From the sequence record PP355091.1: a stretch of 64,000 nt of DNA, one strand, 5' to 3'. A program made the position numbers and the translations under genes. The DNA comes from Escherichia phage 235Ecol030PP. Below, in pieces: positions 18,443 through 26,135 of this stretch. Positions within the stretch are counted from its first letter, which is position 1. The number at the start of each line of letters is the position of its first letter. The notes under the pieces were generated by a model, which saw only the letters and a program-made list of their open reading frames with translations, was not told the origin of the DNA and ran no database searches.

Positions 18443-18836
18443 TTTTACTAAATATACAGAATAAGATGGAACAGACTATATAAGCACCACACACAGATTG
18501 AACTAATACCATTCCAAAGAACCAAACAATATTATCAAACAATGTCTGTTTTACGTCGAAAGGACGTAAACTTACAGTAATATTATCGTCTTTTTCTATT
18601 GAAGAATACATCTCTGGGGAAATATATTCACTAAATCTATAACCGTCTTTGAGTTCATATACGGCAATAAACGATAAACTAGACCCCTTTCCTTGAGTTC
18701 CTGTAAGGGTATTAACTACAGTAACATCATAATCTTTATAATGCATATAATCATTAATTGCGTAATAACCATATGCAACTACTACACATAAACAACATAT
18801 CAATAAATTCAATCTTTTAATTATCAACTGTTTCAT
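18429..18836 (-). CDS. Membrane protein, hypothetical
   Basis: 135 aa; N-terminal and C-terminal hydrophobic segments. Confidence 0.45.
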   Translation of the reverse strand: MKQLIIKRLNLLICCLCVVVAYGYYAINDYMHYKDYDVTVVNTLTGTQGKGSSLSFIAVYELKDGYRFSEYISPEMYSSIEKDDNITVSLRPFDVKQTLFDNIVWFFGMVLVQSVCGAYIVCSILFCIFSKIEIE

Positions 18837-18891
18837 AATAATCTCAATTAAAAGGGCTTAGAACCATTATACCATCCTTGGTATAAAGCGG

Positions 18892-19419
18892 TTATGCGAG
18901 TACCGTCTTTAACCGTTCTTCAAACTTCCGAAGAGTATTTTGGCGTTCAGCTCTTTGCTTTTTGTAAGTTTCAATACGCTCTGAAATGAGAGTGTATCGT
19001 TCATTTACTGATTCTTTCATAAAATCAGGAATTTCACGAGAAGCTTTAATCTCGTCAAATTTATCAATAACAGCTTGCTCTTCAGCAATTAAGTTATCAT
19101 ACATCAAAATATCTTTCTTGATGAACTCAATATCTTCTTGAGTTACACGAGATAATTTAGATGCTTTATCCTTTTTGTACTGTTCGTTAGTATCACGAGA
19201 CCAGTGTAATGTACGATTTTTATTCGTATTCTTGTAAATTTCTACAATACCAATCTCATCAATAATAACGATCCAATTCCAACGGGATTTGTAAATTTGT
19301 CCTCCATCAACCGTGATTTCACCTCCGATTGAGATGTCATTAAAGAACTTGCTTTGTGCTTCAGATTTAAATTTACCATCGTTGTAATTTACCAGGTTGA
19401 AAATATCTTTAGCGTTCAT
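18892..19419 (-). CDS. Hypothetical protein with C-terminal coiled coil (start at MNAKDIF)
   Basis: Track ORF 18892-19479 includes promoter; GGAGGAACACAAA precedes ATG at 19419. Confidence 0.5.
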   Translation of the reverse strand: MNAKDIFNLVNYNDGKFKSEAQSKFFNDISIGGEITVDGGQIYKSRWNWIVIIDEIGIVEIYKNTNKNRTLHWSRDTNEQYKKDKASKLSRVTQEDIEFIKKDILMYDNLIAEEQAVIDKFDEIKASREIPDFMKESVNERYTLISERIETYKKQRAERQNTLRKFEERLKTVLA

Positions 19420-19447
19420 TTTGTGTTCCTCCGTAGTTGATAGTTGT

Positions 19448-19477
19448 ATAGTACCACAGAGGAACGGTCTTGTAAAC
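19448..19477 (-). promoter_or_regulatory. T4-type early promoter
   Basis: -35 GTTTACA (19471-19477), 17-nt spacer, -10 TACTAT (19448-19453), followed by conserved ACAACTATCAACTA. Confidence 0.6.
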
Positions 19478-19479
19478 AA

Positions 19480-19794
19480 CTAAAAGAAACTTCTTTCACA
19501 ATTTTTTCCACTGAACCACGCACTCACTGCTTTCTTAGTCTCAGGAGCAGTGTTATCCATAAACCATTCAAAGGCAGCCTTTTTATGATTCTGGAGGGCT
19601 TCTCGGGCTTTAATCTGCTCACGGTCTATTAACACTAACATATGAGCCTTTCTTGTCACCAGGGGCTTCTTATGATTTTTTGAATACTCCCAATCATTTG
19701 TCCATCGCATCGTTGTTGCGAACTGAAATACTGCTTCTTTAATTTTAGTTTCGTAAATTTCACGAGCCTTTGAGTATAACATCATTACCTCCAT
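19480..19794 (-). CDS. Hypothetical protein
   Basis: 104-aa ORF. Confidence 0.45.
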   Translation of the reverse strand: MEVMMLYSKAREIYETKIKEAVFQFATTMRWTNDWEYSKNHKKPLVTRKAHMLVLIDREQIKAREALQNHKKAAFEWFMDNTAPETKKAVSAWFSGKNCERSFF

Positions 19795-19884
19795 TTACCA
19801 GTTTAATTCTAGTCATCTTTTTGATGGCAGTCCATATAATCTATTTCTGAACTGCCTTTTTGTCTTAGAAGGCCTCTTATGAAT

Positions 19885-20871
19885 TTATTTCAGAAGAGTA
19901 ACCTCAGCGATTTCTTGCCAACCGTTTTTGTCGGTCATAATAAAGTCAGCAAGATAAAGAGCAGTACGCAGTGAAACATTGCGTAAACGATTAACATTAA
20001 CTTTCATCCATGATAATGCTTTATAAGTTTCTTCATCAGAAAGACCGCGCTTTTGCATCATGTCGGTTGAAAGAATAACATCTTCAACCCTGACCATAAT
20101 TTCTTCATTAGTGTGAACACCCAAATCTAAATAAACTGAGCGGGACACTAATGCTTGTAAATGTGGAGCAAGTTTAGTACCACGGTCTAATTCGCGGTCA
20201 ATGTCAACGTTTGTGATAAAAACAATCGTTCCTTTAAATTCAAACTCACGCTCAATGCCTTTTTCTTCTAAGTAAGAAGATGCAGTGCTCCAGCAGACTT
20301 TACGGGTCTCTCCAGTGTCCAGAGCAGCTTTCAGAAGATTAAGAATGTCCATATCAGAGAAAACATCCACATCATCAATCAAAAGGACAGAATTCTCTTC
20401 ACGATTATTCCAAAGCTGTTCATAAAGACCGATACCAGAGATTTTACCATTAATGCTTTTATACTCAATGTATCCAATATCATTTGCTTTATTTAAAGCT
20501 TTATCTAAAGAATACGTTTTACCAATACCTGCTGCTCCCGAGATAATTAATGAACGAATGTTTCCGTTAATAATACCATTCGTCATCATTCCCATAACAT
20601 TAAATCTTTTATTAATGCGGGTTTTCATATCTTCATATGATTCTTTAACTTCTTCAACTTTTACACCATCATATGAAATGTCTGATTTGTAAACCCAAAC
20701 ACCGCGACGTTTACCGTCAATTTCAACAAAAACTTTACCATCTCCTTGTGCATCTACCGGAGCATTATCTGGGAACCATTCGCCTAAGAGCTCAAAAGTT
20801 CCAGAGATTTCTTTACCGAAGTAGATACCCTTATTGATAGTTACAGTTTTCATTTTATTCTCCAATTTCAC
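19885..20871 (-). CDS. P-loop ATPase (AAA-like), function unknown
   Basis: 328 aa; Walker A GAAGIGKT, Walker B LLIDDVD. Confidence 0.6.
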   Translation of the reverse strand: MKLENKMKTVTINKGIYFGKEISGTFELLGEWFPDNAPVDAQGDGKVFVEIDGKRRGVWVYKSDISYDGVKVEEVKESYEDMKTRINKRFNVMGMMTNGIINGNIRSLIISGAAGIGKTYSLDKALNKANDIGYIEYKSINGKISGIGLYEQLWNNREENSVLLIDDVDVFSDMDILNLLKAALDTGETRKVCWSTASSYLEEKGIEREFEFKGTIVFITNVDIDRELDRGTKLAPHLQALVSRSVYLDLGVHTNEEIMVRVEDVILSTDMMQKRGLSDEETYKALSWMKVNVNRLRNVSLRTALYLADFIMTDKNGWQEIAEVTLLK

Positions 20872-20889
20872 ATTTGTTTTGATAGGGTA

Positions 20890-20919
20890 ATAGTATCACA
20901 CTACTACCCTTCTGTAAAC
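20890..20919 (-). promoter_or_regulatory. T4-type early promoter
   Basis: -35 GTTTACA (20913-20919), 17-nt spacer, -10 TACTAT (20890-20895). Confidence 0.6.
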
Positions 20920-20922
20920 AAT

Positions 20923-21186
20923 TTATTTTAACATTCGCCAAATTTTTACTGCTTCGCGACGAGATACTTCTACAGCTCCAAGTTCTACAGCTTTTTGGCG
21001 TCGCCGAGCGTGTAAGTCATAATGTTTAATGCGTTTATCTTGAAACCAAGAACGTTTCATTCCTATTGCTTCTGCCATTTCATGAAGCTCTTCAATATCT
21101 CCATCAGTGAACATATGACAATTTTTAGTTGGATGACCGCGAAGTTTCCATCCATGATTCATTAAAACATCTACGTAAACTGTCAT
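20923..21186 (-). CDS. Hypothetical protein
   Basis: 87-aa ORF. Confidence 0.45.
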   Translation of the reverse strand: MTVYVDVLMNHGWKLRGHPTKNCHMFTDGDIEELHEMAEAIGMKRSWFQDKRIKHYDLHARRRQKAVELGAVEVSRREAVKIWRMLK

Positions 21187-21332
21187 TGATTCTTCTCCAA
21201 ATAAGTTTCGATAATTTTCTGGGCGAGATAAACCGCGTTATCTTCAGTTGCGTCTTCTAAGAAACTTTCAAAACACTCTGAAATTTCTTCTGTGTCAATC
21301 AATTTTTTTACTTCAATTGGTGTAATTTTCAT
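21183..21332 (-). CDS. Small acidic protein (49 aa; start at MKITPIEV)
   Basis: Track ORF 21183-21503 runs through promoter and terminator; first ATG downstream of promoter taken. Confidence 0.4.
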   Translation of the reverse strand: MKITPIEVKKLIDTEEISECFESFLEDATEDNAVYLAQKIIETYLEKNQ

Positions 21333-21369
21333 TTTGTTTTTCCGTTTAAGTGTTTGTTTTGATAGTTGT

Positions 21370-21399
21370 ATAGTACCATAAAGCTTTATGCTTGTAAAC
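21370..21399 (-). promoter_or_regulatory. T4-type early promoter
   Basis: -35 GTTTACA (21393-21399), 17-nt spacer, -10 TACTAT (21370-21375). Confidence 0.6.
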
Positions 21400-21423
21400 C
21401 ACTTTGTGAAAAAATTTTTGAAA

Positions 21424-21448
21424 TAAAAAAGGGAGCCCGAAGGCTCCC
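21424..21448 (-). terminator. Intrinsic terminator (GGGAGCC-UUCG-GGCUCCC plus U6)
   Basis: gggagcccgaaggctccc at 21431-21448 with plus-strand A-run 21425-21430 (U-run on minus RNA), directly after stop of ORF 21451-22464. Confidence 0.7.
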
Positions 21449-21450
21449 TA

Positions 21451-22464
21451 TCATTTATAATAACTTCGGTGGTTTTCAAGATAGACCTTCTCAAGGAAGT
21501 CATCCCAAAAACTCATGTCTACTGTTTTAGGCATACCGTTCTTAGAAGCTTCAGTAGATGCTGCTTCTACTTGATCGACCACATCTTCCAAAAACTCTTG
21601 AACTGTTTTAAATGGATGTTTACCCAACTTCACGTCGAGAATAAATGGAGCATCTTGAAGTGGATAGACTAAGTCACCAGTTTTGTAAATTTCCAATAGT
21701 TGGAGTCCACCACGGCAAGCATGACTCAGAGCTTTCCAGTCAATGCCTTCATTGGCTTCGGCCTTACGAGCACGTTCACCGTATTCAGCATCTAATTTGT
21801 TCAGTGACTGCTTAAGCTCAATAAGAGAAAGCGTTGTCTGATATTTACGACCCAACACAGTGTAGAACATTTGTGGGCCTGTTTTCTCATGATTATGGAA
21901 CACCCATTCACAGAACTCGTTTTCAGGGAGTCTGTGTTTGATATCTTCTACCTTAGTACGACGAAGTCTATCAGGGATTCCTTCTTGATAATCAACCCAC
22001 TGATCGGGGATTTGATTAACTACTTTCAATACATCACGCAATGCGGCCAAACGAGAGCCCTTAACACCATATTTAGAAGCTTGCTTGCGAACATATCCTA
22101 AATAGGATTTCATGTTAGTTGTATAAAACCGTGAACGATTGTCTTGAATAAACTTCCATACATCAGGCAAATCAGATTTAACTACCAGTTCAGGTGGAGT
22201 ATGGAGCATATCCAATGCCACAGTTTCACCATCTGCTGCTAATTTAAAGAAATATTTAAGACTGTATAGTTCATGGTCAATATCATCTTTAGTGTTTTTA
22301 GATGATGTGTTGTTAGTGTTTTTACTCATATGCTCTTTAACATTTCCGATAAGAATATCGCGAGCAGGAGGAACAAAGATTTCTTTAAAATCTACATCAG
22401 ATTCTGGAGTAGAAGTTCCATAAAGATGACTACCAAAATAACTTTTCATTACTGTTTTCATCAT
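21451..22464 (-). CDS. Putative nucleotidyltransferase-fold protein (Pol-beta superfamily-like), function unknown
   Basis: 337 aa; N-terminal GSHLYGTSTPESDVDF resembles minimal NTase G[SG]...D.D motif; assignment tentative. Confidence 0.45.
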   Translation of the reverse strand: MMKTVMKSYFGSHLYGTSTPESDVDFKEIFVPPARDILIGNVKEHMSKNTNNTSSKNTKDDIDHELYSLKYFFKLAADGETVALDMLHTPPELVVKSDLPDVWKFIQDNRSRFYTTNMKSYLGYVRKQASKYGVKGSRLAALRDVLKVVNQIPDQWVDYQEGIPDRLRRTKVEDIKHRLPENEFCEWVFHNHEKTGPQMFYTVLGRKYQTTLSLIELKQSLNKLDAEYGERARKAEANEGIDWKALSHACRGGLQLLEIYKTGDLVYPLQDAPFILDVKLGKHPFKTVQEFLEDVVDQVEAASTEASKNGMPKTVDMSFWDDFLEKVYLENHRSYYK

Positions 22465-22946
22465 TCAGCCTTATATTCAATAACAGGACATACTTTAGCT
22501 TTACGAGCTTTTAAAAATTCAACGATAATCGATTTCTTGGGTTGAATAGGCTCAAGTCCATTTTTGATTCGTTCTTCGTTTTGTACAATGAGCTCAATTT
22601 CTTTATTGAGCTTTCGGTCGTTATATTTGTCTAACAACCAGGAAGGACCAATTACCGCCCCAACAGCAATAAGAACCATAACCGATAATGCTAAAATGCC
22701 TATACCAATTGAAGCCGGAACTAATGTCCATAGACTACTAAAGACAAAGAATTTAATTAAAATTTCTTGGCCAATTATTGCGGCACCTGCTAAAGTTGCA
22801 AATCCAACAATTGAAACAGCTAATACCGGGAGAAACGTTTTCCAAAAATAAGCACATAACGTTTTTGGACGATTCCATGTGCTATTAAATGCCGAGTAAA
22901 TTTTATAGTGCCAAGAGTTTTCATTAATAATCATAATTATAATCAT
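22461..22946 (-). CDS. Membrane protein, hypothetical
   Basis: 161 aa; multiple hydrophobic segments. Confidence 0.5.
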   Translation of the reverse strand: MIIIMIINENSWHYKIYSAFNSTWNRPKTLCAYFWKTFLPVLAVSIVGFATLAGAAIIGQEILIKFFVFSSLWTLVPASIGIGILALSVMVLIAVGAVIGPSWLLDKYNDRKLNKEIELIVQNEERIKNGLEPIQPKKSIIVEFLKARKAKVCPVIEYKAE

Positions 22947-23464
22947 CCTTTCATTGAAGGTGTAACAGTTGTTAAATACTTAATCATAGCTTCAGCTTCT
23001 GATTTTGATAATGAAATTTCTCCATTGTTTTGACGAATAGAAATAAAATCCGGATGACGGTCACCACCAGCTTTTAAAACACACATATAAGTATCAGTTT
23101 CGCCTTCAATATTTGAAATGATTGAAGCAGTTCCACATGAATGCGGTTTTTGATAAATCAATACAGCTTTTCTTCCACCGTTTGACTGTTCATAGGCTTT
23201 TAATACATCAAGCAAATCAGTTCTTTTATCAATAGCTAAGATGTTATTTTCATCTTCAATATTAAATCCTTCGGATACTTCATAAAGAGTTACCCATAAA
23301 TCACCGATGTCAATAACAGCATTTACTTTTCCACGGCTTTCAAGAGTATGACAAATTTTCTTGATTTCATCATAACTCATTTTAATAATATCATCTCCTT
23401 GAATAAGGAAGATGTCATTTTTAAATTCAACGCGAATTAAACCACTTCCACTTGAAATAAACAT
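22943..23464 (-). CDS. Hypothetical protein, paralog of adjacent gene
   Basis: 173 aa; shares GFNIE...IRQ...A.A.K.YL..V.P.M with ORF 23471-24034. Confidence 0.5.
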   Translation of the reverse strand: MFISSGSGLIRVEFKNDIFLIQGDDIIKMSYDEIKKICHTLESRGKVNAVIDIGDLWVTLYEVSEGFNIEDENNILAIDKRTDLLDVLKAYEQSNGGRKAVLIYQKPHSCGTASIISNIEGETDTYMCVLKAGGDRHPDFISIRQNNGEISLSKSEAEAMIKYLTTVTPSMKG

Positions 23465-23470
23465 ATTTCC

Positions 23471-24034
23471 TCACTTTGAAATCATAGTTGGAATGACAGA
23501 ATCAAGATAAGTCTTTAGTGCAATAGCTTCGTCTTTGGTAAATGTGACAATATGTGCTCGAGAATCATCAATTTGACGAATAGTTAAGACATCTCCTTCT
23601 TCATAGCATTTTGATACATTTAAAACAGTTTCATCATTCTGATCGCACTGATCGCAAGCGTTAGTAATAATAGCATTGCAATTTTTAAGCCATTTTAAAC
23701 TGTGTTTTCTTTCATTAGAATAATAAAAATATTTAATGTAAGTTATAAAATTATCCCAATTATTAATTGATAAGCATATTGACTCGCTTTCAATGTTAAA
23801 TCCTGGGCATAAAGAATAGAAATGAATTTTATGCTCATCATTAATGCTTACAATTTTATCAGTGTAAGGTTTTTCAATTTGGGTTAAATGAATAATTTCG
23901 CTAGGCGTAAAATATAGCATATCGTCTTCTTGCGTCAAACGATACATATTATTTACTTTTTCTATAGCCAATTCACCAAAAAGTGAACTAACTTCTAATA
24001 CTAATCGTTTCATATTAATCCTTTTTATTGGCAC
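23471..24034 (-). CDS. Hypothetical protein, paralog of adjacent gene
   Basis: 187 aa; see paralog 22943-23464. Confidence 0.5.
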   Translation of the reverse strand: MPIKRINMKRLVLEVSSLFGELAIEKVNNMYRLTQEDDMLYFTPSEIIHLTQIEKPYTDKIVSINDEHKIHFYSLCPGFNIESESICLSINNWDNFITYIKYFYYSNERKHSLKWLKNCNAIITNACDQCDQNDETVLNVSKCYEEGDVLTIRQIDDSRAHIVTFTKDEAIALKTYLDSVIPTMISK

Positions 24035-24293
24035 GAATTTGTTCTAAAATTTTAGAATATTCCTTTGTATCAGATTTACGTACAATTGATACACTATAAG
24101 GCATACTATCGGTGTCTTTTATAAAGCGTTCCAAATGACACTCTAACAAAATTTCTGGATTATAAATCGTGTACATCAAATTACCTGTTGCTCCACGATA
24201 TTGGCAGATTTCTACTGATTGAACACCATTCCATAATTTTGTTAAAACTAAATCACCTACTTCTAATTTAGGAAAGCCCATGTTATTCACCAA
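24015..24293 (-). CDS. Hypothetical protein
   Basis: 92-aa ORF. Confidence 0.45.
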   Translation of the reverse strand: MVNNMGFPKLEVGDLVLTKLWNGVQSVEICQYRGATGNLMYTIYNPEILLECHLERFIKDTDSMPYSVSIVRKSDTKEYSKILEQIRANKKD

Positions 24294-24468
24294 TTAAAGT
24301 TTCAATATAAGAATCAAGATTTACTTTAGCTTCTTCCATAAGAGTTTTGTATTTAATCTTGTTAGCATGTCCGGAGAAAGCTGATTCATCAATAATTGTT
24401 GATGTATGAACAGCTTTACTATACGTCTCAATTAATTCTCTTAATTTAAAAGCCTGCTCACTTGTCAT
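24283..24468 (-). CDS. Small helical protein, hypothetical
   Basis: 61-aa ORF. Confidence 0.4.
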   Translation of the reverse strand: MTSEQAFKLRELIETYSKAVHTSTIIDESAFSGHANKIKYKTLMEEAKVNLDSYIETLIGE

Positions 24469-24600
24469 TACATACTCCTTTGAATAATATCAATAATGTT
24501 GTTCACCAGATTATAAGTAAACATTGGGTAATTATATTGAATCATCACATACACAACAAACAAAACTTTCATTCTCTTCTCCTTGGCAGTTGACAAGATT

Positions 24601-24630
24601 ACTATACCATAACCTTGCCAACTTGTAAAC
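24601..24630 (-). promoter_or_regulatory. T4-type early promoter
   Basis: -35 GTTTACA (24624-24630), 17-nt spacer, -10 TATAGT (24601-24606). Confidence 0.55.
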
Positions 24631-24795
24631 CGTTAAATGTTGTTTTCAATAAAATTTTGAAGCTTTGTGTGAGCATCAACCATGATTTTCATTTCTTCTT
24701 TTGCGAAAGCTGTACCTCTTTCCCGAGCAGAATACTCATAGTCAGAAACTGCATTAGCATATTCTTCAATTAGCTTCATTAAAAACATCTGCTTT

Positions 24796-24990
24796 TCAGT
24801 TTTCATTATTCCACCTAATCATTTCAAGATATTGAACTAACTTAGCTTTAGATTTATCCAAATCCTTTTTAGCTGCTTCTATACCGTCGTATGAATATCC
24901 TTCACAATGCTCAACTGCTAATTGATATGAATCTATTTCAATATCACGTGCTAATTTAATGATTTTTTCAAACTGTTCGCGTGTTAGCAT
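24796..24990 (-). CDS. Small helical protein, hypothetical
   Basis: 64-aa ORF. Confidence 0.4.
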   Translation of the reverse strand: MLTREQFEKIIKLARDIEIDSYQLAVEHCEGYSYDGIEAAKKDLDKSKAKLVQYLEMIRWNNEN

Positions 24991-24992
24991 AC

Positions 24993-25175
24993 TTAAACTC
25001 TCGTATTATGATCGATAATTTCATCAAGAAACATATCTAACGCTTCTACAGCATTATCAACTTTAGCTTCAAGTTCTTCAATACCTGATAAGGCAAAGTT
25101 AATGCGTTCCTCATCTGCTTTACGAATTAAAGATACCAATTCCTTAATTTTATCCGCTTGTTCGATACTAATCAT
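24993..25175 (-). CDS. Small helical protein, hypothetical (start at internal Met)
   Basis: Track ORF 24993-25211; start trimmed to avoid overlap. Confidence 0.4.
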   Translation of the reverse strand: MISIEQADKIKELVSLIRKADEERINFALSGIEELEAKVDNAVEALDMFLDEIIDHNTRV

Positions 25176-25360
25176 TATTCCACCACATATGAAAGAGAGA
25201 ATATTGCACACGCCATGTGAGTTGCAACTTCATCACACATATTATAACGTTTCTTAAGAAGTTCTACAAGTTCTTCACTAGTAACTTCATCCATGTCGAC
25301 GAAAAAATCACCATTAATGATGACGTAGATATTTCCTTCTTGATTGAGTGCTTCAATTTT
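25175..25360 (-). CDS. Small protein, hypothetical (start at [10 protein letters not shown])
   Basis: Track ORF 25175-25408 includes promoter; GAGGAGAACATC precedes ATG. Confidence 0.4.
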
Positions 25361-25391
25361 CATGATGTTCTCCTCTTTATCCGATAGTTGT

Positions 25392-25421
25392 ATAGTACCA
25401 CAGCTCAAACGGAAAGTAAAC
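25392..25421 (-). promoter_or_regulatory. T4-type early promoter
   Basis: -35 GTTTACT (25415-25421), 17-nt spacer, -10 TACTAT (25392-25397). Confidence 0.55.
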
Positions 25422-25430
25422 CGGTAAAAT

Positions 25431-25453
25431 GAAAAAAGTCTCCCGAAGGAGAC
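25431..25453 (-). terminator. Intrinsic terminator (GUCUCC-UUCG-GGAGAC plus U6)
   Basis: gtctcccgaaggagac at 25438-25453 with A-run 25432-25437 on plus strand. Confidence 0.65.
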
Positions 25454-25458
25454 TAATG

Positions 25459-25845
25459 TTATTCGAGGGAAAGAAGATACTTACTCTGGTAAAACATTCC
25501 AGTAATATCATCTATCGTGCTTTGGATGGCTGGAGGCATTTCTTTATAAATGCTGTTAGATTGGTCTAGTATGCGATCAATCATTTTAATTGTGTCGGTA
25601 GGAAGTTTACTGGCATCTGGAATTGAAGGTGTGTATTTTCTACCAGAATACCCCAAATATTGCTCACCAAATTTATCAATCAAATCTGGCAACTCGGAGA
25701 AAATAAAATCGTATGCTTTGTGTCTAGCATAACTTTTAGTTTCAAAATGTGCAGAATGAAAATAAGCTTGTGCAGCCATTAATAAACCTAAGTATTCATC
25801 TGCCTTTGAAGGTTTTCCACTTTGTGAAAAGTCACTGAATTTCAT
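25459..25845 (-). CDS. Hypothetical protein
   Basis: 128-aa ORF, 4-nt overlap with rI stop. Confidence 0.5.
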
Positions 25846-26135
25846 TCAGTCTCCAATTTAATGTTCATAATTCTAGCGTATGATTGTGCCATCTCCGCGC
25901 CTCGCTCTATACATTCAAAATCAGAAGAGCACGGGTCATTTTTATAGGTCGTTCTCATAAAACTATAGAATTGTTCAGACGATTCTACGCTTTTATTTTC
26001 AAAAAGCATATAAACATGCCTAATACCAGATTCCATAAATTTATCAAAATGAGGATCAACATTCGCTTCAATCGATGGAGATAAAACAAATGACAATCCT
26101 AGCATGGCAAATAGTGCCGTTGCTTTTAAGGCCAT
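25842..26135 (-). CDS. rI: Lysis inhibition regulator RI (periplasmic, signal-anchor)
   Basis: 97 aa; MALKATALFAMLGLSFVLSPSIEANVDPHF... matches recalled T4 RI; adjacent to tk. Confidence 0.85.
   Translation of the reverse strand: MALKATALFAMLGLSFVLSPSIEANVDPHFDKFMESGIRHVYMLFENKSVESSEQFYSFMRTTYKNDPCSSDFECIERGAEMAQSYARIMNIKLETE

What the first reader, a model, noticed from the sequence alone, without database searches (positions are those of the whole stretch)
19885..22464. AAA-like ATPase and nucleotidyltransferase-fold protein pair, each with its own early promoter, in the nrdC-rI variable block
ORF 19885-20871 has clear Walker A and B motifs (GAAGIGKT, LLIDDVD). ORF 21451-22464 starts with GSHLYGTSTPESDVDF, resembling the minimal nucleotidyltransferase motif. 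Neither function is assignable from sequence alone. NTase plus ATPase combinations occur in nucleotide-signalling and anti-defence contexts, so these are candidates for uncharacterised host-takeover or counter-defence functions.
Basis: inference. Interest (0 to 1): 0.5.

Follow-up and report, generated by a model that had tools for sequence, protein, structure and literature searches.

The report
T4 nrdC.10 and nrdC.11, unlinked
These two genes are the known T4 genes nrdC.10 (an uncharacterised ATP-driven motor protein) and nrdC.11 (an RNA-repair-type nucleotide-adding enzyme); they are neighbours by history, not a working pair, so the finding is mostly ordinary.

Summary
The window comes from a T4-like phage (Tequatrovirus). 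ORF 19885-20871(-) is the orthologue of T4 nrdC.10 (96.6% identity). ORF 21451-22464(-) is the orthologue of T4 nrdC.11 (95.3%). All quoted motifs are present and conserved.

NrdC.11 belongs to the RlaP family (Pfam PF10127). A 2025 preprint showed two bacterial RlaP enzymes add 1-2 nucleotides to RNA 3'-OH ends, and it names T4 NrdC.11 as a member. Here, relatives of the NrdC.11 type sit in RNA-repair gene sets: RtcB/RtcA/Hen1/Ro60/Y-RNA operons in bacteria, and kinase-phosphatase plus Rnl1-type ligase genes in phages.

NrdC.10 has a confident AAA+ fold and a full catalytic motif set. It fits no defined AAA+ clade and has no conserved neighbour.

The "pair" reading fails:
- A terminator separates the two genes.
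- Only nrdC.10 has its own early promoter. The second promoter drives an inserted 49-aa ORF/DUF4031 cassette.
- Adjacency disappears outside close T4 relatives.
- Each gene occurs without the other.
- No CBASS or other defence model matches either protein.

Verdict: known genes. There is a plausible but untested role for NrdC.11 in tRNA repair. NrdC.10's target is unknown.

The parts
19885..20853 (-). nrdC.10 orthologue: 322-aa AAA+ ATPase. It has an N-terminal beta domain (residues 1-62), a variable linker, an AAA+ core (residues 73-245) and a helical lid (residues 249-319). The longest ORF extends to a GTG at 20871.
20890..20919 (-). T4-type early promoter immediately upstream of nrdC.10 (GTTTACAGAAGGGTAGTAGTGTGATACTAT).
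   Evidence: It shares the extended consensus of three other early promoters in the window. The pattern occurs 18 times in the window against about 1 expected by chance.
20923..21186 (-). 87-aa DUF4031 gene. It is part of a cassette inserted between nrdC.11 and nrdC.10 that is absent from T4.
   Evidence: Pfam PF13223, 77.5 bits. T4 has only 114 bp here.
21183..21332 (-). 49-aa ORF, the first gene of the inserted cassette.
   Evidence: phrog_6888 covers this part only. Annotated as a 150-nt CDS in phage DalCa. ATG read from the sequence.
21370..21399 (-). T4-type early promoter that drives the inserted cassette. It matches the promoter that sits directly in front of nrdC.10 in T4.
   Evidence: The T4 intergenic sequence contains GTTTACAAGCATAAAGCTTTATGGTACTAT.
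21430..21449 (-). Intrinsic terminator hairpin (8 bp, 6 G-C pairs, followed by a T run) that ends the nrdC.11 transcription unit.
   Evidence: The same hairpin is present in T4 and is annotated as a terminator in DalCa.
21451..22464 (-). nrdC.11 orthologue: 337-aa RlaP-family Pol-beta nucleotidyltransferase. The NTase core covers residues 7-136. The C-terminal half (about 137-337) is predicted mostly helical and does not align with canonical RlaP.
   Evidence: ORF. 95.3% identical to T4 NrdC.11. Pfam RlaP 43.9 bits against a cut-off of 23. phrog_388. Invariant catalytic residues. hhalign against canonical RlaP.
25392..25421 (-). Nearest upstream early promoter on the minus strand; the likely start of the roughly 4-kb unit whose last gene is nrdC.11.
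   Evidence: No early-type or MotA-type promoter pattern lies on the minus strand between 21400 and 25392.

Best explanation
These are two unrelated accessory genes of a T4-like phage. They sit side by side because of shared ancestry in a gene-shuffling region, not because they work together. (1) NrdC.11 is an RlaP-family nucleotidyltransferase. Shown here: family membership, intact catalytic residues, and placement of its close clade inside RNA-repair gene sets. Inferred: it adds one or two untemplated nucleotides to the 3'-OH of broken RNA. Together with the phage polynucleotide kinase-phosphatase and RNA ligase 1, which are encoded elsewhere in T4-type genomes, it would let tRNAs be resealed after host anticodon nucleases of the RloC type have cut them and removed a nucleotide. 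It is transcribed as the last gene of a longer unit. (2) NrdC.10 is a phage-specific AAA+ ATPase with a complete catalytic motif set, including an arginine-finger candidate. It therefore probably forms an ATP-hydrolysing ring. It is probably made immediately after infection from its own early promoter. Its small N-terminal beta domain is the likely substrate or adaptor-binding part, and distant relatives replace this domain with others. Its target is not known. I infer a remodelling role on a host or phage complex that is independent of NrdC.11.
Against: No enzyme of the NrdC.11 clade has been assayed; the biochemistry comes from a different RlaP cluster. Only the N-terminal half matches the RlaP model (positions 23-143 of 249), and the C-terminal halves do not align, so substrate choice could differ. 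The AF2 model of NrdC.11 was poor (pLDDT 56). In this window and in T4 the gene is not next to any RNA-repair gene. Most relatives (about 80% of the genome-assembly loci) show no RNA-repair neighbour within 7 kb. For NrdC.10 there is no positive evidence about its target. In 25 of 31 close relatives the two genes do stay within about 2.3 kb of each other, so a lineage-specific functional link cannot be formally excluded.
Confidence: 0.6

Rival explanations
1. One reading: the NTase and the ATPase form a two-gene module that makes, senses or destroys a nucleotide signal, or otherwise acts jointly against host defence systems such as CBASS, Thoeris or retrons.
For: The genes are neighbours in 25 of 31 close relatives. 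Both lie in an early-transcribed accessory region.
Against: They are separate transcription units with a terminator between them. An unrelated cassette is inserted between them here, and the spacing varies from 115 to 2290 bp. Adjacency is 0 of 33 at 50% identity or less, and 34 of 43 nrdC.10 loci have no NTase nearby. Neither protein hits any PADLOC model. The NTase is RlaP-type, not a CD-NTase. Its cellular relatives pair with RNA ligases, not with this ATPase.
Confidence: 0.07
2. NrdC.11 acts on RNA 3' ends but not in anticodon-loop repair. Examples would be rebuilding damaged tRNA 3'-CCA ends, or tailing host or phage RNAs to change their stability.
For: The assayed RlaP enzymes take any RNA 3'-OH and any NTP. 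The distinct C-terminal half could give a different RNA preference. Many T4-type genomes do not place it near repair genes.
Against: The recurrent neighbours are end-healing and sealing enzymes (Pnk, Rnl1, RtcB, RtcA, Hen1), which repair internal breaks. From my own recollection of the classical literature, not checked here: maturation of some T4 tRNAs depends on the host CCA-adding enzyme, which argues against a phage-encoded substitute.
Confidence: 0.15
3. NrdC.11 transfers nucleotides to a protein or small molecule, like MntA-type antitoxins or antibiotic nucleotidyltransferases.
For: A weak match of the GS..DxD segment to MntA (13.2 bits) and to NTP_transf_2 (13.6 bits).
Against: Both matches fall far below their cut-offs (60 and 21 bits) and cover only about 18 residues of the shared catalytic motif. 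There is no HEPN partner gene nearby. The assayed RlaP enzymes did not label protein or DNA.
Confidence: 0.05
4. NrdC.10 is an accessory factor of RNA repair, analogous to the MoxR-type AAA+ ATPase found at the end of the Nitrosospira RNA-repair operon.
Confidence: 0.05

Closest known systems
T4 NrdC.11 (NP_049709), an RlaP-family NTase (Pfam PF10127, COG3541)
   Same: 95.3% identical and in the same genomic position. It has the same NTase core with GS, DxD and a third Asp, and the same family as the enzymes shown to add 1-2 NMP to RNA 3'-OH.
   Different: The assayed Pseudomonas RlaP enzymes belong to a different sequence cluster (1a, against cluster 5 for T4). The C-terminal half of the NrdC.11 type (about 200 residues) does not align with canonical RlaP. 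Bacteria often carry both types in tandem, which suggests non-identical roles.
T4 NrdC.10 (NP_049708), phrog_1250, an uncharacterised phage AAA+ ATPase
   Same: 96.6% identical, with the same position, the same early promoter type and the same motifs.
   Different: Nothing of note. In this phage a cassette (49-aa ORF, DUF4031 gene and a second promoter copy) is inserted upstream of the gene.
The T4 tRNA repair pathway (Pnk/PseT plus Rnl1), and bacterial RtcB/RtcA and Pnkp/Hen1 repair systems
   Same: Relatives of NrdC.11 are encoded next to exactly these enzyme types, in the same orientation.
   Different: In T4-type genomes, including this window, nrdC.11 is not next to pseT or rnlA. No genetic link to the pathway has been shown.
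Defined AAA+ clades (MoxR/NorQ/CbbQ, NtrC-type, MCM, clamp loaders, DnaA/ORC initiators)
   Same: The same core fold and lid. NrdC.10 has an SRC-like 'SRS' arginine motif, and an LLKAALD motif followed by an insertion before the sensor-1 strand that resembles a pre-sensor-1 hairpin.
CBASS CD-NTases and their partner ATPases
   Same: Only the general Pol-beta NTase fold and the presence of a P-loop ATPase nearby.
   Different: No PADLOC match for either protein. The NTase family is different, cyclase-type features were not detected, and the two genes are not co-transcribed.

Membership tests
RlaP (PF10127) nucleotidyltransferase | Score above the curated Pfam cut-off | tested here: met
   43.9 bits against a cut-off of 23, covering residues 7-136 and model positions 23-143 of 249. 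40 of 41 diverse homologues also match.
RlaP (PF10127) nucleotidyltransferase | Pol-beta catalytic residues: hG[GS], [DE]x[DE] and a third carboxylate | tested here: met
   G11, S12, D23, D25 and D63 are invariant in 41 sequences. They align with the GS, D37, D39 and D73 of canonical RlaP.
RlaP (PF10127) nucleotidyltransferase | C-terminal helical domain homologous to that of canonical RlaP | tested here: inconclusive
   The profile-profile alignment stops at residue 133. The Pfam match lacks model positions 144-249. The AF2 model predicts helices but has low overall confidence.
RlaP (PF10127) nucleotidyltransferase | Gene neighbourhood with RNA ligases and end-healing enzymes | tested here: met
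   Met for the NrdC.11-type clade: RtcB in 10 of 80 loci; the full L076 operon; Rnl1+PNKP in L050 and L120; Pnkp in L086; HD-kinase+Rnl1 in phage contigs L198, L200, L201 and L204. Not met within this window itself.
RlaP (PF10127) nucleotidyltransferase | Adds 1-2 NMP to RNA 3'-OH | not testable with these tools
   Shown only for two Pseudomonas enzymes (preprint).
AAA+ ATPase superfamily | Walker A, Walker B, sensor 1, arginine finger and sensor 2 conserved | tested here: met
   G106-T113, D160/D161, N215, R238 and R291/R296 are invariant in 33 homologues. Assigning the last three roles to those residues is inference from their position in the model.
AAA+ ATPase superfamily | Alpha-beta-alpha core plus C-terminal helical lid | tested here: met
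AAA+ ATPase superfamily | Score above the cut-off of a curated AAA family model | tested here: not met
   The best hit is AAA_14 at 23.5 bits against 27. AAA (PF00004) scores 16.4 against 21.2. The only NCBIfam hit is Hda at 14.6 against 194.8.
A specific AAA+ clade (MoxR, clamp loader, initiator, and so on) | One clade clearly the best match by structure or sequence | tested here: inconclusive
CBASS or other known anti-phage defence proteins | Match to a PADLOC model | tested here: not met
   No hit for either protein or for the two cassette ORFs at E up to 0.1.
MntA/MNT-HEPN type VII antitoxin NTase | Score above the NCBIfam cut-off, plus a HEPN partner gene | tested here: not met
   13.2 bits against a cut-off of 60, over 18 residues only. 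No partner ORF of that kind lies nearby.
Two-gene operon or functional module (NTase + ATPase) | Co-transcription and conserved co-occurrence | tested here: not met
   A terminator and a separate promoter lie between the genes. Adjacency holds in 27 of 79 and 9 of 43 loci, all among close relatives.

The most novel reading that the evidence does not exclude
NrdC.11 is a third, overlooked component of the T4 tRNA repair pathway. It would put back the nucleotide that RloC-type host nucleases excise specifically to defeat Pnk/Rnl1 repair. The NrdC.11-type enzymes, with their distinct C-terminal half, would be a functionally separate branch of RlaP that bacteria deploy in tandem with the canonical enzyme. 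Separately, NrdC.10 would represent a phage-only AAA+ lineage with a new early-infection target.
Probability: 0.3. Interest if true: 0.6.

Novelty: already known. Interest (0 to 1): 0.3.

Why it matters
If NrdC.11 does restore nucleotides removed by RloC-type nucleases, it would add a further round to the tRNA cleavage and repair contest between T4 and its host. It would also assign a role to a gene found in about 1,500 sequenced phage records. NrdC.10 is found in about 1,300 phage records, is strongly conserved, and has no known role, so it is a reasonable target for experiment. Neither point depends on the two genes being a pair, and the evidence says they are not.

Tried and rejected
- The AlphaFold model of NrdC.11 built from a shallow alignment was poor (pLDDT 56; residues 1-99 below 50), so I did not use it for fold search.
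- Sequence and profile searches of the PDB found nothing for NrdC.11, so the PfRlaP crystal structure is apparently not in the copy searched. NrdC.10 gave only a chance hit.
- The afdb50 fold library was unavailable.
- I looked for a conserved neighbour of nrdC.10 across 43 viral loci and found none.
- I tested whether a MoxR-type AAA+ recurs next to NrdC.11-like genes in bacteria. It occurs only in L076.
- I checked the N-terminal domains of nrdC.10 relatives. There is only a weak, sub-threshold HTH signal in one jumbo-phage homologue.
- I searched for a MotA-type middle promoter for nrdC.11 and found none on that strand.
- An Rfam scan of 18500-26000 gave only a sub-threshold chance hit.
- The supplement of the T4 genome-reduction paper is not held, so per-gene dispensability of nrdC.10 could not be read. 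The main text reports loss of the nrdC.11-mobD.3 fragment in viable mutants.
- A literature search for functional work on nrdC.10 found none.
Full report
**What is there.** The window matches hundreds of Tequatrovirus genomes at 95-97% identity. Comparison with annotated T4 and phage DalCa identifies ORF 19885-20871(-) as the orthologue of T4 nrdC.10. ORF 21451-22464(-) is the orthologue of T4 nrdC.11. Protein identities to T4 are 96.6% and 95.3%. Homologues of nrdC.10 begin at the ATG at 20853, so the protein is probably 322 aa. The AAA-ATPase motif of nrdC.10 and the COG3541 nucleotidyltransferase match of nrdC.11 were published in 2006 (PMC1524935).

**Transcription signals.**
- The T4 early-promoter pattern GTTTAC..TAnnAT occurs 18 times in the window, against about one expected by chance.
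- On the minus strand near the finding it occurs at 20890-20919, 21370-21399 and 25392-25421. These sites share an extended consensus.
- The first site lies just upstream of nrdC.10.
- The second lies downstream of nrdC.11's stop codon (21451) and of a strong terminator hairpin at 21430-21449. It drives a 49-aa ORF (21183-21332) and a DUF4031 gene (20923-21186).
- In T4 the same terminator and the same promoter sit directly in front of nrdC.10, within a 114-bp spacer. This phage therefore carries an inserted cassette with a second promoter copy.
- nrdC.11 has no promoter of its own. Its ATG overlaps the stop codon of the upstream 161-aa ORF. No early-type or MotA-type promoter pattern lies on that strand before 25392.
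- The two genes are thus in different transcription units. The claim "each with its own early promoter" holds only for nrdC.10.

**NrdC.11: family and residues.**
- It scores 43.9 bits against Pfam RlaP (cut-off 23) over residues 7-136, and it matches phrog_388.
- A search of 1.8 billion representative proteins found 3,508 relatives, 830 of them at E of 1e-30 or lower.
- In an alignment of 41 relatives at 33-54% identity, G11, S12, D23, D25 and D63 are invariant and D85 is at least 90% conserved. Forty of the 41 match RlaP.
- A profile-profile comparison with canonical full-length RlaP proteins aligns residues 5-133 at 90.7% probability. It pairs GS with GS, D23/D25 with D37/D39, D63 with D73, and D85 with E95.
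- The C-terminal halves do not align.

**NrdC.11: what the literature shows.** A December 2025 preprint (10.64898/2025.12.29.696909) studied two Pseudomonas RlaP enzymes.
- They add one or two NMPs to RNA 3'-OH ends.
- They prefer Mn2+.
- They do not act on DNA or protein.
- They prefer the 5' half of a cleaved-tRNA mimic.
- They can restore aminoacylation of a tRNA that has lost a nucleotide.
- The preprint places T4 NrdC.11 in the family (cluster 5) but did not assay it.

**NrdC.11: gene context of the clade.** I fetched 80 loci from bacterial and archaeal genome assemblies that encode full-length relatives at 30-54% identity.
- Fifteen have a canonical RlaP of about 265 aa immediately downstream.
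- RtcB lies within 7 kb in 10 loci, and Ro60/TROVE in 4.
- The Nitrosospira locus L076 reads RtcR | Ro60 - YrlA Y RNA - RtcB - RtcA - NrdC.11-like - RlaP - Hen1.
- L120 and L050 place the NTase next to an Rnl1-type ligase and a PNKP with the kinase+HAD architecture that I recall for T4 Pnk. L086 has a 745-aa kinase-phosphatase-ligase Pnkp immediately upstream.
- By my tally, at least 16 of the 80 loci carry an RNA-repair gene within 7 kb.
- Among 79 viral loci, contigs L198, L200, L201 and L204 carry an HD-phosphatase/P-loop kinase, then an Rnl1-type ligase, then the NTase, all on one strand. L198, L200 and L201 are the same phage. L183 and L188 carry the ligase a few kilobases away.
- This links the NrdC.11-type clade itself, not only the assayed cluster, to RNA end-healing and sealing enzymes.
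- The role in T4 remains inference. It would work with Pnk and Rnl1 to repair tRNAs that have lost a nucleotide to RloC-type nucleases. In T4-type genomes the gene is not adjacent to pseT or rnlA.

**NrdC.10.**
- All Pfam P-loop matches fall below their cut-offs (best is AAA_14, 23.5 against 27). phrog_1250 is a family of unknown function.
- About 357 close clusters exist, essentially all from phages.
- Across 33 homologues down to 55% identity, the following are invariant: Walker A, Walker B (DD), FITN (sensor 1), an SRC-like SRS motif with R238, and LRNVSLRT with R291/R296.
- The AlphaFold model is confident (pLDDT 89). It shows a five-strand N-terminal beta domain (1-62), a variable linker, an AAA+ core and a helical lid.
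- Foldseek against the PDB ranks ORC1/Cdc6, ClpA, NSF, RuvB and RFC first, with TM-scores of 0.45 or less. Against viral models it finds family members in other phage groups, then MoxR-, CobS- and RFC-like proteins.
- An insertion between the LLKAALD helix and the sensor-1 strand resembles a pre-sensor-1 hairpin. That reading is mine, from the alignment and the model.
- No clade can be assigned.
- Distant relatives swap the N-terminal domain: one has a weak HTH signal, others have an unrelated domain of about 290 aa, and some have none.
- No neighbour is conserved across 43 loci.

**Are they a pair?**
- From the nrdC.10 side, 9 of 43 viral loci have an NrdC.11 relative within 10 kb, and all 9 are close T4 relatives.
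- From the NrdC.11 side, 27 of 79 loci have nrdC.10 within 10 kb. The split is 25 of 31 at 63% identity or more, 2 of 15 at 51-61%, and 0 of 33 at 50% or less. Spacing ranges from 115 to 2290 bp.
- One contig carries both genes about 40 kb apart.
- Counts in sequenced phages differ by host genus: Klebsiella 149 against 286, and Vibrio 121 against 59, for nrdC.10 against nrdC.11.
- The only nrdC.10 match among the genome-assembly loci is L048, a 167-kb contig that looks like a T4-like phage.
- No PADLOC defence model matches either protein.
- The adjacency is best explained as inherited synteny in a region that shuffles cassettes.

**Verdict.** The genes are catalogued T4 genes with published domain predictions, and the NTase+ATPase module idea is not supported. 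What remains of interest is the testable hypothesis that NrdC.11 belongs to the phage tRNA repair pathway, and the unknown target of a widespread, strongly conserved phage AAA+ ATPase.

Noticed in passing
window 20890-21449 (-): Relative to T4, a cassette is inserted between nrdC.11 and nrdC.10. It consists of a 49-aa ORF, an 87-aa DUF4031 gene and a second early-promoter copy. Both of its ends carry the shared sequence TACTATnnnnCTATCAAAACAAA. The DUF4031 gene sits at other positions in related phages (L005, L008). This looks like promoter-flanked cassette shuffling.
   Followed up: partly
window 22461-23464 (-): The HNH homing endonuclease gene mobD, which follows nrdC.11 in T4, is absent here. 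A 161-aa predicted membrane protein (phrog_944) and a 173-aa ORF (phrog_1502) take its place, as in T6 and DalCa.
   Followed up: no
L051, L053, L062, L065, L068, L076, L089, L092, L097, L101, L112, L113, L115, L119, L123: In 15 loci from bacterial genome assemblies, an NrdC.11-type NTase (about 320 aa) is followed immediately by a canonical full-length RlaP (about 255-280 aa) on the same strand. A two-NTase tandem has not been described in the paper I read and may indicate a division of labour.
   Followed up: partly
L076 810-13060: A very complete RtcR-controlled RNA-repair operon in a Nitrosospira assembly: Ro60, a YrlA Y RNA (Rfam 80.2 bits), RtcB, RtcA, two RlaP-type NTases and Hen1, followed by a MoxR-type AAA+ and a vWA/DUF2201 protein.
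   Followed up: yes
L160-L182 (Aeromonas, Vibrio and Klebsiella T4-like phage contigs): In more distant T4-like phages the NrdC.11 gene lies among NAD-salvage genes (NAMPT, an NMNAT-Nudix fusion, a PRPP-synthetase-like gene) and near an SPFH/Band-7 gene. As I recall, SPFH modules have been proposed as RNA-repair scaffolds; I did not check this.
   Followed up: no
L020 9569-10762: A jumbo-phage relative of NrdC.10 (397 aa) carries a different N-terminal region with a weak, sub-threshold helix-turn-helix signal (LacI, HTH_3; E about 0.004-0.006). This hints that some family members may bind DNA.
   Followed up: partly
public annotations of homologues: Many GenBank and UniRef records label homologues of both nrdC.10 and nrdC.11 as 'thioredoxin', and one as 'HNH homing endonuclease'. 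This is apparently an error propagated from the gene names nrdC.x. Neither protein has a thioredoxin domain.
   Followed up: no
window 21415-21578 (-): A sub-threshold Rfam match to the L20 leader (26.5 bits against a gathering score of 58.7) overlaps the nrdC.11 terminator. I judged it a chance hit caused by the hairpin.
   Followed up: yes
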